Source: Octopus sinensis
Lineage: Eukaryota
Reading direction: 5' to 3'
Length of the DNA: 64,000 nt
Assembly: GCF_006345805.1 (NCBI RefSeq)
Contig: NC_043017.1
Coordinates: 30,318,001 to 30,382,000, forward strand
A program made the position numbers and the translations under genes. The notes below the pieces were generated by a model. The model saw only the letters and a list, made by a program, of their open reading frames with translations, did not search any database and was not told the origin of the DNA. Positions 1 through 57,104 of the stretch are shown here, one piece after another (position 1 is the first letter of the stretch; each line of letters opens with the position of its first letter).

Positions 1-300
1 TGGTGGTGGTGGTGCTGATGATGATTAAAAGGGAGGAGGCGAAGGAGGAGGAGGAGGCGGAAGTGGTGGAGAACAGGAAGAAAAAGAAATGGAAGTTGAA
101 GAGGAAAAGTAAGAGGAAAATATAATTAGAAAGCAATACGTAGAAAGAAAAGAGAACAGTGAGGAGGACGAGCAGGAGGAAGAGGAGGAGGACAATGATA
201 ATGATGAAGATGAAGAAGAATGAGAAGAAAACAAGATGAACGACAACAACACCAACAACTATGACAAAATAACAACAGCAATAACAAGCACAAGAAAACC
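1..300. repeat. Purine-rich low-complexity trinucleotide tract (GGA/GAA/GAT/AAC)
   Basis: Runs of ggt, gga, gag, gat and aac triplets; explains the Ser/Pro-rich ORF 25..258. Confidence 0.85.
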
Positions 301-309
301 AAGCAAATA

Positions 310-526
310 CTCTCTTACACTCTTTAACGTGTTTCAGTCATTTGACTGTGGCCATGCTGGAGCACCACCTTTAGTCAAGCAAACCGACCCAGGACATTCT
401 TTGGAAGACTAGTACTTATTATATCGGTTATTAGGCCGAACCGCTAAGTGACGGGGACATAAACACACAAGCATCGGTTGTCAAGCGATGTGGGGCGGGG
501 GGGCAAACACAGGCACACAAATATAT

Positions 527-21700: not shown

Positions 21701-21941
21701 ATTGCATAGAACTGATTGCATAGAACTGATTGCATAGAACTGATTGCATAGAACTGATTGCATAGAACTGATTGCATAGAACTGATTGCATAGAACTGAT
21801 TGCATAGAACTGATTGCATAGAACTGATTGCATAGAACTGATTGCATAGAACTGATTGCATAGAACTGATTGCATAGAACTGATTGCATAGAACTGATTG
21901 CATAGAACTGATTGCATAGAACTGATTGCATAGAACTGATT
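21701..21941. repeat. Perfect 14-bp minisatellite (ATTGCATAGAACTG) x17
   Basis: 17 identical units with no spacers; produces the repetitive ORFs at 21584-21967. Confidence 0.97.
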
Positions 21942-23389
21942 TCATTCTGATTTACATATTTGTCCATATTCTCAACCCTGTCTTTTCTAATCTCTTACAA
22001 TTTGTAGACCTCGCTCTTAGCTCTTTTAGTCGTCACACTTTGACTCATGACACAATCTACAATTTCCATTAAATTCGTTGACAGAAAATCTTAAGCTAAA
22101 AATGAAAAAAATTTATACGTACATTTCTACACAACAAGAGAAAATAGAAGTGATATGAATGCTCTATTTTTCCTCTACCTTTCGCATATCTATGCCACAT
22201 GCTGTAAATTTGGGAAATGTATATAGGCATTATTATTCCATTCCAGCATTAAACTTATACAAATGTGCACGCGTGTTGAAGCTTGTGTATTCGTATGTGT
22301 GTATTTCTGAGTTCAACGAATTCACATGTTAAAGAACAAACAATGTTTATTGATTCTCTGACTAGGAAAGTTTTTGGAAAGTTACTTACGATAGTAACAT
22401 ATACTTTCATTGTTAAACTTTCCTTCAAGAAATAAAGAGACAGATTGGGAGAAGAAATACAAAAAAACTAAAGGAAATGCAAAAATGGGAGCAAAATTCA
22501 AATTAAATTTTAAAGCAAGAGAATAAAGCTGATTAATTTACAGAATAGAATTTTTTGAAAAAAAAAGAAAGTCAAACCATTTAGAAAATTTTTAAAAAAT
22601 TATATCTCGCACACATAATCAGCTACTTAAAAAACCTGGCTATACATATATCTATCACTGCTATAACCACCACACTCATCGATTCAATTTATCAATAGTA
22701 CCGCAAACAGCACCACTACTATTATGACTAACATCAGACTATTATCCGTGCTTAATATAAAAAGTGAAAATAAGAGAAAAACGTACAATCGAAGCAAAAG
22801 AGAAGTACGCGATGCCACCACAACCACAACAATTTGTACAAAAAATACCCCTTCTATTGTAGCCGTTACCACATTTACAACAGAGTTATCAACACTAGCT
22901 CTATTACCTTAGAATTACCACTAGTACAAATATGCTGTTACACAATAGCAGAATCTACTATATCTAAGGCAATCGTCAGTATGATAGATCCATAGTTAAC
23001 AGTAATTATGCTATCGATATCAGCCAAATAGTTTTAATTGGTTTTCGCTACAGGCTTCAGATAGAGCTGCTCAAAGCCTTACAAAATACGAACTGCTTGC
23101 AACAGAACTATGACTCAATAAAGAACCATAGCAATACATCAGCAAATTAACTTGCTTCCAATAATGTACTGCAAGGACCTGTTTATCCTTTTACCAACAC
23201 AATAGCTAAAATATTTTATCAAATGCACACAAATGGAAATAATTAAATAAATACAGATGTCTGCAGCTAGATCAGCTAAAAGCAGGTGGCTAATCCACAA
23301 TTTCTTATGATAATAGCGGCAACAAATGTTATCTATTTTCCGAAAGAAAACTCACAAGAACATAAACACATCACGTCGAAATTATGCAG

Positions 23390-30406: not shown

Positions 30407-32142
30407 ATCTTTGGGGTCTTTTATCAAAAGAACGAATATTAGTCTGAGGTCGATCCAAGTGGTTTATCCATTTCCCTAGAGAAAACGTCCACGAGCCTAA
30501 GTGATCGATAATTATTATCGATCAGCGTATTTTTATTTATTTATTTATTTATTTAAGGTTATGATTTTCTGTGTGAAAACATTTGAATATTATAGAAACG
30601 ACCACAAAAGAAGCATCGATTGTTTCTTTGTCTTGTTTTGTTTTGTCTTCTGTTGTTTTTTTTATATTTTTCATGATAGAGATTTTTACAAGAAAGTGTT
30701 CGGAGAAAATGAGAGAATATGCAAAGTGTAGAGTGAGTCGCAGAGAAAGGGATTTAAAGAGAGAGGGAGAGGTGGTGAGAGATAGAGAGACACTGAGAGG
30801 GGGGAAGTGAGAGAAGAAAACATATTAAAGACAAAAGCAGACACAGTATCTTAAAGCTTTTTACTGCTGCTGATGATAGCGCTGCAGTTGTTTTAGCATT
30901 TATTATCCTGTTTTTTGCTTTGTTTTAGGTTTGTTATTAGCAACAAGGATAATTGTTTTATAGCGACATTAGCCATGAACAGGAAAAAAAAGTGATTACG
31001 TGAAGAGACTATTTATGACGTTGGTTAGCTACTGTCTTTACGAGCGTTTGACAATCGCTGCAACAACAAGAATAACAACAGCCAAACGTGAATAAATACA
31101 TAAAGATGAATAAATAAAATATTTTTTTCTTGAAAAAAAAAAAAAAATGGTGTGAAAATCTATATTAGATTGCAAAACAAAAATATATTTTCTTTAAAGA
31201 AAAAAAAAAACAAAAAATAAACGAAGAAAAAATTACTATCAAAAGATCGAAACCGCAACACATTAAATTATAAAGAAAACCCCCACAAAGATAAGAAACA
31301 AATTATAAATAAAACATTACAAAAATAATACAACAAGGAAAACTGGCCGGATTAAAGCTTGCTCGACTTATTTGTACATTCAGCTCATTATACTGAAGTT
31401 GGTCGACGCAGTAAAACGATTAATCAAATGATTTTATTGTTAGTATTTAGTAAACTAGAAGACACAGCTGAATTCATTGAGAAACAAATAAACAGATGAA
31501 TACATGTTTAGTAATGTATGATAGGTAAGAAGCTGGAGAAGGTTATATAACAAATGTTCTCAAAGAATTACAATATATTACAATTCTAAGTTTTAAGCGC
31601 ATTGCCTCTGCTGCAGAATTAGAGAGTTTCATTAATTTATTTGAAATATGGTCATTGTTTTATTCTGTCTTAGCAAATGTTTGAGTTACGTATATTCTTT
31701 CCTTTTATTGGTTTCAGTCTTTGAACCACTCTGAAGTTGGTGCATTGGGTTGAAGTGGTTTTAATTTTGCATATTCGTTTATAGCACTCCAAACTGTATG
31801 TGCGGTGTAATATCATCATTTTCAAAGGGCACGGGTGATAAATGAACTTGGGGAGATAATTGCGCAGAATTAAATACTGCTGTGCATTTCTATATGCGTA
31901 TACAGATCTCATCCAAGTCGAGTATATATATATATATATATATATATATACTACAAAATTAGAGAATGGAGAAACATACTTAAATCAATAAAACATCAAC
32001 TATCCGATGATACCCAATCAATACTTTAATACACCATTACATATGAGTAAAGGCATTATATAAAATGAGATATACAGTAATAGTAAAAAGATAAAGAGAT
32101 ATAAGTAAAAAATTTCAAATATAATATGCAATTAAATCAAAA

Positions 32143-32250
32143 CTGACAGCTGTTTCGGCAGTGAGGGCAGTCATACCTCATTTAACCTCTTAGCCATAAA
32201 GGCAGGTATAAATGAGGCATTAACAAGGATGCCCCACGGCCTCTTCAGAG
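32143..32250 (-). ncRNA. Type I hammerhead ribozyme motif, left arm
   Basis: Reverse complement of 32615-32722. Confidence 0.75.
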
Positions 32251-32614
32251 AATTAAATTAAATTTGTTATAATTGCGAAAAATATAATATAACCATATAC
32301 ATATAAATATAAAAATATAAAAATGTAAAATATAAAAATATAAAAACTTATACATCATAATGCTACACTTATATAATATAATACTTATTGGTACAATAAA
32401 GGAAGGTAAACAGAACAAAATAAAACAAAATATATATCAGTGTATTTTGTTCTGTTTACCTTCCTTTATTGTACCAATAAGTATTATATTATATAAGTGT
32501 AGCATTATGATGTATAAGTTTTTATATTTTTATATTTTACATTTTTATATTTTTATATTTATATGTATATGGTTATATTATATTTTTCACAATTATAACA
32601 AATTTAATTTAATT

Positions 32615-32722
32615 CTCTGAAGAGGCCGTGGGGCATCCTTGTTAATGCCTCATTTATACCTGCCTTTATGGCTAAGAGGTTAAATGAGGTATGACTGCCC
32701 TCACTGCCGAAACAGCTGTCAG
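32615..32722 (+). ncRNA. Type I hammerhead ribozyme motif with 85-nt stem II, right arm
   Basis: ct-CTGAAGA-ggccgtggggca..atgcctcattta..taaatgaggtat..tgccctcactgcc-GAAA-cagctg-TC-ag. Canonical core, GUC site at 32718-32720, palindromic ACAGCTGT; stem I only 2 bp. Confidence 0.75.
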
Positions 32723-33089
32723 TTTTGATTTAATTGCATATTATATTTGAAAATTTTTTACTTATATCTCTTTATCTTTTTACTATTACTGTATATCTCA
32801 TTTTATATAATGCCTTACTCATATGTAATGGTGTATTAAAGTATTGATTGGGTATCATCGGATAGTTGATGCTTTATTGATTTAAGTATGTTTCTCCATT
32901 CTCTAATTTTGTAGTATTAATTTACGGTAATATTATTACCTTTACCCATATAATACAATAGATGAACTGATTGTTTGACAATTTTTAACATCTATGTATT
33001 AATCTTGTTGGGTACCTATCTGGCAGTATATTGGATATATATTATCCCATGGTGGGTTGAATTTTCAACCCCTATCTCATTTTATAACC

Positions 33090-33119
<30 letters not shown>

Positions 33120-38554: not shown

Positions 38555-38840
38555 AGTTGAATGAATTATCTTAGAATGGATAATTCGGTTAACCGATACC
38601 TGGGTAGCAAATTCACGTCAGAAAAACACGGTTGAAGCTACATGCCTAGGGCAGAGATCACGTGCTTTTGTGTGGAAATTTGTGTGTTTTTTTAATACAA
38701 ATAAATGAAAGAATGAAGTTGAACGACTATTTAACAAAATTCCTTTATTCTCGACATATGTTTCGAAGGCTGCATATTCCTAATTTCGAAGGAATAAGGG
38801 GTGCATTATGCCGCCTTCTCATCAGGAAAAACAAGGAACA
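38555..38840 (-). mobile_element. PLE-type terminal-repeat fragment related to the 41.7-kb family
   Basis: Shares ttaaccgatacc..gtagcaaa.tcac..cacggttg with the tails at 42225-42280 and 56848-56897; flanked by (TA)-rich tracts. Confidence 0.7.
38748..38830 (-). ncRNA. Canonical type I hammerhead ribozyme motif, 54-nt stem II
   Basis: Minus strand: ttttc-CTGATGA-gaaggc..gccttc-GAAA-catatg-TC-gagaa. Intact core, GUC site, palindromic ACATATGT, 5-bp stem I. Confidence 0.85.
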
Positions 38841-41671: not shown

Positions 41672-41735
<64 letters not shown>

Positions 41736-41788
41736 GTGAATTGAAGAATGGAGTTGAACGAAGATTGAACAGAAATCGTTTTATTGCA

Positions 41789-41867
41789 TTCTACACGTGT
41801 TTCGAAAGGCACAATTACCAAATTCCGATTGAATAATGAGACCATATTGTGTCTTTCTCTTCAGGAA
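41789..41867 (-). ncRNA. Type I hammerhead ribozyme motif, left arm
   Basis: Reverse complement of 42030-42109. Confidence 0.82.
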
Positions 41868-42029
41868 GAAATAGGAAATCCGTTGGAATAAACAAAAACA
41901 GAACAGAGGCGGAGTAAAACAAATCGAACGAGGCTCCTAAGAGCCCATGGCCAAACTTAGGAGCCTCGTTCGATTTGTTTTACTCCGCCTCTGTTCTGTT
42001 TTTGTGTATTCCAACGGATTTCCTATTTC

Positions 42030-42109
42030 TTCCTGAAGAGAAAGACACAATATGGTCTCATTATTCAATCGGAATTTGGTAAATTGTGCCTTTCGAAACA
42101 CGTGTAGAA
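42030..42109 (+). ncRNA. Type I hammerhead ribozyme motif with 55-nt stem II, right arm
   Basis: ttc-CTGAAGA-gaaagacacaat..attgtgcctttc-GAAA-cacgtg-TA-gaa. Intact core, GUA site at 42104-42106, palindromic ACACGTGT. Confidence 0.82.
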
Positions 42110-42319
42110 TGCAATAAAACGATTTCTGTTCAATCTTCGTTCAACTCCATTTCTTCAATTCACTAATAATATTAAAATTCAATTATCCGCACCAACGCAC
42201 GGTTGCAACACCATATGGTTGTACCTCCAACCGTGCTGTCTTCTGCTGTGATTTTTGCTACCAAGGTATCGGTTAAACTTTTGATTAATCTGCAACAAGA
42301 TTATTCATCTTTCTATTTC

Positions 42320-42363
<44 letters not shown>

Positions 42364-55909: not shown

Positions 55910-56802
55910 GAACATATGCATGTATACGTAAGCACGAGAGCTATTGCTGACTTTTCGTCAATAAATTACCATTCCTACACTTCTTCCATGAGAAATTATA
56001 TCAGAATCGACTTGATCAAGGTGTTGTGCGATTGACCCATGAATCCTAAAGTAGCAAAACGAAAAACCTAATCACACGGCAGTGCTTGCACCATTTCGTC
56101 CGTTTAATAAATGTATACCGTATTGTATTTTTTTAAATTTCATATTTATGTACATCATGTGAAGCAGCGGCAATTCTTGTAGAAATCCTTTTCAAAGAGG
56201 TGAGAGAAATTCCTTTCTATAATTTATATTCAATAATTATAGAGTTAGGGGTCCACACTGCACTTAGAAAGAGGGTACTTAATAAGTGATGATGTTGATT
56301 ATATTCATCCCCATGTTAGCTTACAATCGATATTTTATGATAAAAGAAGTATGATCAAAAACCGCTGATCAAAGACTTTTGTTCAAAATGCTATGATGAA
56401 AGACTTATGATCAAAAATGTTCCTGCCATCATCACAGCGACTGGTTTCCAGGCAAAAGAGTCAAGGACAGCGTCATCCAATTTATGAAATAGGTTTAGTT
56501 GATACTGTACAGTATTATATATACAACGTTGGCATAGATACGCTCTAGTTATGGGGGTTTTGTAGACAAGAATACAGAGCTAGCGATTTCAAAGATCTGC
56601 AATGTGGGTTGTGTGATTTTATGTGCACTGAGAGAAAGAACTGAAATACTCAAGATATTATTTAAATAATTAAAAATGTATTCAAATAAATTGTTAATTA
56701 AATGCAAACAGGGGACACGTTTGCTTTGGGAGGTAATTCAGTTGCAGCAATTCACCAATAATGATGCAGACATATATATATTATATATATATATATATAT
56801 TA

Positions 56803-57104
56803 TGTGAAATAGAAAGATGAATAATCTTGTAGTAGATTAATCAAAAGTTTAACCGATACCTTAGTAGCAAAAATCACAGCAGTAAACAGCACGGTTGGAG
56901 GTACAACCATCTGGCGTTGCAACCGTGCGTTGGTGCGGATAATTGAAATTAAAACATTATTGGTGAATTGAAGAAAGACACAATATGGTCCCATTATTCA
57001 ATCGGATTTTGGTAATTTGTGCCTTTCGAAACACGTGTAGAATGAAATAAAACAATTTCTGTTCAATCTGCGTTCAGCTCCATTTCTTCAATTCACCAAT
57101 AATG
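56803..57104. mobile_element. Collapsed copy of the 41.7-kb palindromic HHR element
   Basis: 56803-56976 matches the reverse complement of ~42150-42322; 56970-57104 matches ~42034-42170 directly. Residual 22-bp inverted repeat at 56955-56976 and 57083-57104; (TA)n flanks. Confidence 0.85.

What the first reader, a model, noticed from the sequence alone, without database searches (positions are those of the whole stretch)
41734..42323. Second, unrelated palindromic ribozyme element with the same architecture
Seen: ~208-bp arms, 14-bp spacer, ~160-bp tail, (TA)n flanks, and an intact HHR (CTGAAGA, 55-nt stem II, GAAA-cacgtg-TA) on each arm facing outward. No sequence similarity to the 32-kb element is visible outside the ribozyme core. 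Inference: two independent families giving short arm + spacer + long arm with tail points to a shared fold-back or template-switch integration mechanism rather than an accident.
Basis: partly seen in the sequence, partly recalled or inferred. Interest (0 to 1): 0.8.

Follow-up and report, generated by a model that had tools for sequence, protein, structure and literature searches.

The report
Palindromic stump of Hydra-clade Penelope retrotransposon
This 590-base palindrome is the cut-short end of a young Penelope-like jumping gene, with the hammerhead motif and mirror-image second arm already described for such elements, and its many sister copies suggest that both arms are likely copied from one RNA starting at two fixed sites.

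Summary
Observation confirmed: arms of 208/210 nt, 14-nt centre, 158-nt tail, (TA)n flanks, an outward-facing minimal hammerhead motif on each arm. It is not a stand-alone ribozyme element. Longer copies in the genome run into an 899-codon RT + C-terminal GIY-YIG frame with Hydra-clade Penelope-like (PLE) motifs. The 32-kb element is a sister Hydra family (41% protein identity), so the two are related. An inverted 5'-truncated copy, a tail, a hammerhead and (TA)n targets are all published PLE/Hydra features. New detail: 70 of 88 distinct loci of the two families carry an inverted arm. Both outer ends are fixed and the centres vary. Arms of one insertion share variants, junctions show microhomology, and in 12 copies the inverted arm reaches far beyond the forward one. 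This favours two primings on one RNA over plain fold-back, which is not excluded. Tails are 150-170 nt (published 30-40). This family lacks the CxCX5C linker yet still sits in (TA)n. Ribozyme activity is untested; a read-through RNA folds into one long hairpin that buries it. The scan noted similar palindromic PLE stumps before in another genome.

The parts
41672..41735 (.). Left (TA)n target microsatellite
   Evidence: a TSD cannot be resolved inside the repeat
41734..41955 (-). Inverted, 5'-truncated copy of the PLE end (pseudo-LTR), outer end at internal site B about 153 nt from the tail end; includes the so-called 14-nt spacer 41942-41955
   Evidence: (I[385..153])
41792..41864 (-). Minimal type I hammerhead motif, left copy (C3 at 41864, predicted cleavage base at 41792)
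   Evidence: activity untested
41956..42165 (+). Forward, 5'-truncated copy of the PLE end (3' UTR / pseudo-LTR)
   Evidence: F[369..2]; continuous with the RT-EN frame in L031, L032, L109
42033..42106 (+). Minimal type I hammerhead motif, right copy: CTGAAGA 42033-42039, stem II 42040-42094, GAAA 42095-42098, palindromic stem III to 42105, predicted cleavage after A42106
   Evidence: core kept, with paired changes in stems II and III, in a 68%-identical relative
42166..42323 (+). Tail (158 nt) between the two fixed end sites B and A; in full-length tandem copies it continues about 50 nt to the ATG of the RT-EN frame
42323..42361 (.). Right (TA)n target microsatellite
   Evidence: 30 of 30 top family loci end in (TA)n
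31951..33090 (+). Comparison element: stump of a sister Hydra-clade PLE family (arms about 472 nt, tail about 170 nt)
56800..57103 (.). Third copy of the same family (about 93% identical): tail piece 0-175 inverted, internal piece 155-286 forward, the two overlapping by only about 20 nt, between (TA)n
38589..38838 (-). Older relative (68% identical) with the hammerhead core intact

Best explanation
The element is a heavily 5'-truncated insertion of a young Hydra-clade Penelope-like retrotransposon into a (TA)n repeat, and its mirror-image form was likely built during integration by two reverse-transcription starts on one RNA. Shown: the sequence is the end module of an RT + GIY-YIG element; both outer ends are fixed across copies (site A at the tail end, site B 151-153 nt inside); the centres vary; the two arms of one insertion carry the same variants. 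Inferred: the endonuclease cuts both strands of (TA)n; one 3' end primes cDNA at site A, the other at site B of the same RNA; both cDNAs stop early, often near the same point (a broken RNA 5' end, or one cDNA turning back on itself); their inner ends join through 2-10 nt of microhomology and each serves as template for the other's second strand. The tail is then simply the distance between the two start sites. The hammerhead is the ordinary pseudo-LTR motif carried along twice; in this stump it is probably inert, because the two copies lie on opposite strands and a read-through RNA is predicted to fold as one 200-bp hairpin.
For: Identity: longer copies run into RT and GIY-YIG frames; L074/L109 holds pLTR + 899-codon open frame + pLTR with an inverted copy upstream; the protein atlas places it next to clusters with GIY-YIG, RVT_1 and HTH_animal members (scores 0.95-0.98); DKT, RW(L/R), no CCHH, CxxC and CxH match the Hydra definition. 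Fixed ends: inverted outer end at 150-153 in 38 of 41 armed loci of this family (others 139, 175, and 258 in a copy with an internal deletion), and at 167-177 in all 24 armed loci of the first 30 of the sister family. One template: substitutions per site within an insertion 0.0049 against 0.0128 between insertions (22 copies), and 0.0025 against 0.0071 (20 copies); the three subfamily columns of this family agree between arms in 16 of 16 cases. Microhomology of 2 nt or more at 15 of 24 and 10 of 19 measurable junctions against 16% and 23% by chance. Inverted arm more than 30 nt longer than the forward arm in 12 of 69 measurable armed loci, by up to several kb; the window copy at 56800-57103 overlaps by only about 20 nt; in the sister family 6 of 30 tail-only hits have a forward piece ending at 156-183, next to site B. 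In vitro, a Poseidon PLE cuts and extends both target strands and starts RT at two internal sites whose spacing equals the tail (PMC11167929, parts 1-2 read).
Against: 34 of 69 measurable armed loci are near-symmetric (inner ends within 30 nt) at scattered positions from about 160 to 920, which plain fold-back predicts directly; two primings explain it only with the added assumption of a shared RNA 5' end. Shared variants could also come from fold-back or from gene conversion between arms after insertion. Long palindromes are prone to central deletions (own knowledge), which could produce the asymmetric copies. Overlaps were read from BLAST ends and may be slightly inflated. Loci are the top 30 hits of four searches out of 1188-2709 first-look candidates each, biased to young copies and (in two searches) to long forward arms. 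No phylogeny was run; Pfam finds nothing significant in the frame. No empty orthologous site was available.
Confidence: 0.6

Rival explanations
1. Same element, but the second arm is made by fold-back (self-priming): one cDNA turns back at a short internal inverted repeat and copies itself, the hairpin is resolved at site B by the endonuclease or by pairing with the other (TA)n end, and asymmetric copies arise by later deletion at the centre.
For: 34 of 69 armed loci near-symmetric; several centres sit on natural short inverted repeats of the element (L016, L024, L027, L053, L063); arms share variants; self-priming was proposed for PLEs in PMC3846280 (passages) and EN-mediated resolution for the tail in PMC8557442 (passage).
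Against: Among near-symmetric copies the tail-less inverted arm is the longer one in 19 of 25 unequal cases (p 0.015), the opposite of what fold-back from the tail-bearing cDNA gives; 12 copies have an inverted arm far longer than the forward arm; the copy at 56800-57103 has almost no overlap. A hybrid (site-B cDNA folds back and meets a site-A cDNA) needs two primings anyway.
Confidence: 0.3
2. The short palindrome is a non-autonomous unit (retrozyme- or MITE-like) that is copied as a whole from a master palindrome.
For: Inner ends pile up at 369-391 in about a third of the first 30 loci; L016, L024 and L027 have nearly the same centre; one palindromic unit is tandemly duplicated (L155/L156); short PLE-derived retrozymes exist (bioRxiv 10.64898/2026.07.22.740005, part 1 of 5 read).
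Against: Centres differ in most copies and lengths grade continuously into full-length elements; copies with the same centre differ in subfamily variants, each shared by its own two arms; no tandem array of hammerhead monomers and no terminal inverted repeat at both outer ends. The pile-up fits a preferred RNA 5' end or fold point.
Confidence: 0.06
3. Assembly artefact (fold-back chimera of long reads) or two chance insertions head to head.
For: Palindromes are a known long-read artefact (own knowledge); (TA)n repeats are insertion hotspots.
Against: Outer ends are fixed at two different element positions in dozens of loci of two families; host flanks are not mirrored; the arms share insertion-specific variants yet differ at a few sites.
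Confidence: 0.02

Closest known systems
Hydra clade of C-terminal EN+ Penelope-like elements (Craig et al. 2021, PMC8557442; e.g. Hydra-1_Obim, Penelope-13_HM)
   Same: Single RT + C-terminal GIY-YIG frame, DKT and RW motifs, no CCHH, CxxC and CxH around the EN, hammerhead in the end module, (TA)n targets; File S1 notes a 5'-truncated inverted copy on Penelope-13_HM and File S2 lists its hammerhead on both strands.
   Different: Unit about 3.6 kb against under 3 kb; Ser/Asn-rich inserts in the frame; CxCX5C linker absent in 39 of 39 translated pieces from this family's loci, several of them the same locus fetched twice, but present in the sister family; 55-nt stem II region, far longer than the Hydra entries of File S2; a different hammerhead sequence from Hydra-1_Obim.
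Canonical PLE insertion structure: pLTR, inverted 5'-truncated copy, optional tail (PMC8557442 Fig. 2 legend; PMC3846280)
   Same: Head-to-head inverted copy at the 5' end, tail on one end only (on either arm: L072, L087, L090 and L092 carry it on the inverted arm), palindromic junctions.
   Different: Tail of 150-170 nt against 30-40 nt; here the insert is so short that only the two end modules remain.
PAc (Poseidon, Anolis) in vitro mechanism (Frangieh et al. 2024, PMC11167929)
   Same: Two internal RT start sites whose spacing is the tail; both target strands cut and extended; AT-rich targets; hammerhead not needed for insertion in vitro.
   Different: PAc start sites lie inside the ORF and close together; here both sites lie upstream of the main ATG, 150-170 nt apart, and both abut AT-rich bases that could pair with (TA)n.
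Minimal type I hammerheads of metazoan PLEs (Cervera and de la Pena 2014, PMC4209133)
   Same: Short helix I, long helix II, G10.1-C11.1 pair, palindromic helix III expected to work as a dimer, low activity in vitro.
   Different: Very long helix II insert; two copies on opposite strands, so no dimer within one transcript.
L1 twin priming
   Same: Second target strand primes internally on the same RNA and gives a 5' inversion joined by microhomology.
   Different: In L1 the internal site is variable and the pieces barely overlap; here the internal site is fixed and the pieces usually overlap by hundreds of bases, giving a palindrome.

Membership tests
EN+ Penelope-like element | Single ORF with RT and C-terminal GIY-YIG endonuclease | tested here: met
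   899-codon open frame in L074/L109; RT motifs and VY..YVG endonuclease read from the sequence and matched to the Hydra alignment; atlas neighbours carry GIY-YIG and RVT_1 in part of their members; Pfam itself gave no significant hit
EN+ Penelope-like element | Partial tandem forming pLTRs, adjacent inverted truncated copy, tail on one end | tested here: met
   L109, L110, L112 show inverted copy + direct pLTR + ORF + pLTR; 41 of 47 loci armed
EN+ Penelope-like element | Hammerhead motif in the pLTR | tested here: met
   core intact in window copies, older subfamily and 68% relative with paired changes
Hydra clade | DKG changed to DKT; RWK motif | tested here: met
   SDKT in both families; RIRWL and RIRWR variants of RMRWK
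Hydra clade | CCHH absent; CxxC and CxH around conserved E and N | tested here: met
   one Cys only between the GIY and YIG positions; CNLC before E, CPH after N
Hydra clade | CxCX5C linker between RT and EN | tested here: not met
   absent in all 39 translated pieces of this family; present in the 41%-identical sister family, so read as a secondary loss
Hydra clade | Insertion into (TA)n | tested here: met
   30 of 30 and 29 of 30 tail ends
Hydra clade | Falls inside the clade in an RT phylogeny | not tested
   no tree built; reference proteins were seen only as supplement text
Self-cleaving hammerhead ribozyme | Self-cleavage at the predicted site | not testable with these tools
   no Rfam match; only contigs available for possible RNA runs
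Non-LTR retrozyme | Tandem array of hammerhead-bearing monomers | tested here: not met
   no tandem array at the locus; copies are dispersed truncations of a coding element
MITE | Terminal inverted repeats at both ends, uniform length | tested here: not met
   tail on one side only, lengths variable, RT-coding parent

The most novel reading that the evidence does not exclude
These two families record the Penelope integration mechanism at population scale: one RNA is primed twice, from both strands of a cut (TA)n repeat, at two fixed sites 150-170 nt apart, so that nearly every insertion is born as a perfect palindrome; and this family does it without the zinc-finger-like linker thought to guide (TA)n targeting. 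Its intact 895-residue protein makes the model directly testable, and the output is a large stock of ready-made double-stranded-RNA hairpins in the host genome.
Probability: 0.4. Interest if true: 0.6.

Novelty: new member of a known kind. Interest (0 to 1): 0.3.

Why it matters
As an object it is ordinary: a dead stump of a known class of retrotransposon. Its value is as data on an open question, how PLEs make their tandem/inverted structures and tails, which PMC8557442 names as the next task and PMC11167929 leaves unvalidated after first-strand synthesis. Young (98-99% identical) and abundant families with fixed outer ends, variable centres and arm-shared variants constrain the models. The linker loss tests the proposed link between that motif and (TA)n targeting. 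If transcribed, such palindromes would be strong ADAR or small-RNA substrates (inference; PMC5625713 reports a palindromic frog repeat and lizard Penelope as heavily edited, passages).

Tried and rejected
Rfam scans found no hammerhead family; the miRNA hits are far below their gathering scores and reflect the long hairpin. Pfam gave nothing significant. I first took the GLYRDD-type RT for the Nematis clade from memory; the Hydra definition and alignment fit instead. A shared sequence motif at the two end sites holds in this family (0 of 918 and 2 of 918 windows score as well) but not in the sister family (732 and 1024 of 2280), so it is not claimed as general. A possible intron linking an ATG in the tail to the main frame: no such joint in 4 runs laid as contigs; no listed holder is on record as RNA, so expression and cleavage remain open. 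No related genome was available for empty-site comparison. Search for 'Penelope' + 'twin priming' + 'inverted' returned 2 papers, neither about this by title or abstract start; searches showed no paper with a population analysis of PLE arm ends, but most subscription papers (e.g. Arkhipova 2006, Evgen'ev and Arkhipova 2005) are not in the library and were not read. In the locus union L018 and L156 were left out beforehand as repeats of L011 and L155; nine further duplicates (L139, L147, L166, L170, L176, L178, L179, L182, L191) were removed by hand from coordinates, and L047 was dropped from the symmetry count because both arms run past the reference. L149 and L175 are counted as without arm though their loci end before the question is settled; L186 is counted as armed though its inverted piece lies about 940 nt away.

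Full report
Observation. The palindrome is real: arms 41734-41941 and 41956-42165 differ by one substitution and two single-base gaps, with 14 nt between them, a 158-nt tail and (TA)n on both sides. Each arm has a hammerhead core facing outward; the predicted cleavage base on the right arm is A42106. No nucleotide similarity to the 32-kb element goes beyond 15 nt. Rfam does not recognise the motif. It is of the minimal kind: about 3 bp of stem I, a long stem II that appears in the predicted fold, and a palindromic stem III, as described for metazoan PLEs, which are thought to act as dimers and cleave poorly in vitro (PMC4209133, passages). An older relative at 38589-38838 (68% identical) keeps the core and changes stems II and III in paired fashion, so the motif was conserved in the lineage. 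In this copy the whole element folds into one hairpin of about -400 kcal/mol that pairs each motif with its own complement.

What it is. A search of the own genome (2.72 Gb) with the right half gave 1755 first-look candidates, not a copy number; the 30 best are 98-99% identical. All 30 end at the same tail base followed by (TA)n. Upstream they continue to different lengths, and the long ones enter a frame ending in a GIY-YIG-type endonuclease preceded by RT motifs. A second search reached full-length copies of a slightly older subfamily: L074/L109 has an inverted copy, a direct pLTR, an open frame of 899 codons and a second pLTR; the unit is about 3.6 kb. The protein has SDKT, RIRW, GLYRDD, no CCHH, and CxxC/CxH around the endonuclease E and N, the definition of the Hydra clade of Penelope-like elements (PMC8557442 section 11; alignment rows). 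The atlas agrees at the level of PLE-like proteins; Pfam is silent. No tree was built.

The 32-kb element. It behaves the same way (2709 candidates), leads to a 960-codon frame (L129) and that protein is 41% identical to the first. The two are sister families; their untranslated ends have diverged beyond recognition. The shared architecture is therefore inherited, not convergent.

What is known. PMC8557442 (Fig. 2 legend and text) describes an inverted 5'-truncated copy next to the pLTR and a 30-40-bp tail on one end; its File S1 lists (TA)n for almost all Hydra families and an attached inverted copy for Penelope-13_HM, whose hammerhead File S2 lists on both strands. PMC3846280 reports inverted pLTRs, tails and palindromic junctions and proposes self-priming (passages). 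PMC11167929 shows in vitro that a PLE protein cuts and extends both target strands and starts RT at two internal sites whose spacing is the tail (parts 1-2 of 4). A curation guide treats these forms as routine (PMC8969392, passages).

Mechanism. To remove the bias toward long forward arms I also searched with the tails alone. Over distinct loci, 41 of 47 of this family and 29 of 41 of the sister family have an inverted arm. Its outer end is fixed: 150-153 nt from the tail end in 38 of 41, and 167-177 in the sister family. The inner ends vary. Arms of one insertion are two to three times closer to each other than to arms of other insertions, and subfamily variants agree between arms, so both come from one template or were homogenised. 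Junctions overlap by 2 nt or more in 15 of 24 and 10 of 19 measurable cases against 16% and 23% expected. Of 69 measurable armed loci, 34 are near-symmetric, 23 have a much longer forward arm and 12 a much longer inverted arm. In the window itself the inverted arm runs about 16 nt further than the forward one, which is the '14-bp spacer'; among near-symmetric copies the inverted arm is the longer in 19 of 25 unequal cases (p 0.015). A third copy at 56800-57103 has pieces that overlap by only about 20 nt. Two fixed outer ends and inverted arms holding sequence absent from the forward arm point to two primings on one RNA; the many near-symmetric centres point to a shared stopping point or a fold-back step. 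I put two primings at 0.6 and plain fold-back with later deletion at 0.3. That the element is a PLE stump is close to certain.

What differs from print, as far as the searches reach: tails of 150-170 nt; both end sites upstream of the main ATG (49 nt after the tail end); and loss of the CxCX5C linker in this family (0 of 39 translated pieces) with (TA)n insertion retained, although mobilisation in trans by a linker-bearing relative is not excluded. The supplement of PMC8557442 is cut in the held copy and its figures are not visible, so Hydra tail lengths and linker variants described there may have been missed.

Verdict. Real, explained, a new family of a known clade; modest interest as mechanistic data.

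Noticed in passing
window 56800-57103: Third copy of the family (older subfamily) in which tail piece and internal piece overlap by only about 20 nt, resembling a twin-priming inversion rather than a palindrome.
   Followed up: yes
window 38589-38838 (-): 68%-identical relative with intact hammerhead core (CTGATGA, palindromic stem III, GUC triplet) and paired changes in stem II.
   Followed up: partly
L155/L156 (G000:C4:136243681-136244290): A whole palindromic unit (inverted arm + forward arm + tail) is duplicated in tandem with a short (TA)-sized gap.
   Followed up: no
L001-L030, positions 369-391 from the tail end: Inner ends pile up here in about a third of the first 30 loci, next to short inverted repeats; could be a preferred RNA 5' end or fold point.
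   Followed up: partly
L164, L167, L168, L171, L186, L187: Sister-family copies that consist of little more than the tail, ending at 156-183, right at the internal site B.
   Followed up: partly
L109:4325-7021 and L129:317-3196: Both proteins carry long Ser/Asn-rich inserts between RT thumb and endonuclease, recalling the N-rich inserts of Adineta PLEs (PMC3846280).
   Followed up: no
L094:1795-3018 and L106: Fragments of further, different Hydra-like families lie near these insertions, so the clade is diverse in this genome.
   Followed up: no
L031/L033 (L069-L071): The same insertion with the same junction occurs at three places, two with shared upstream flank: a segmental duplication or unmerged haplotype.
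   Followed up: partly
window 21701-21945: Near-perfect tandem array of a 14-nt unit, 17.5 copies, 99% matches.
   Followed up: no
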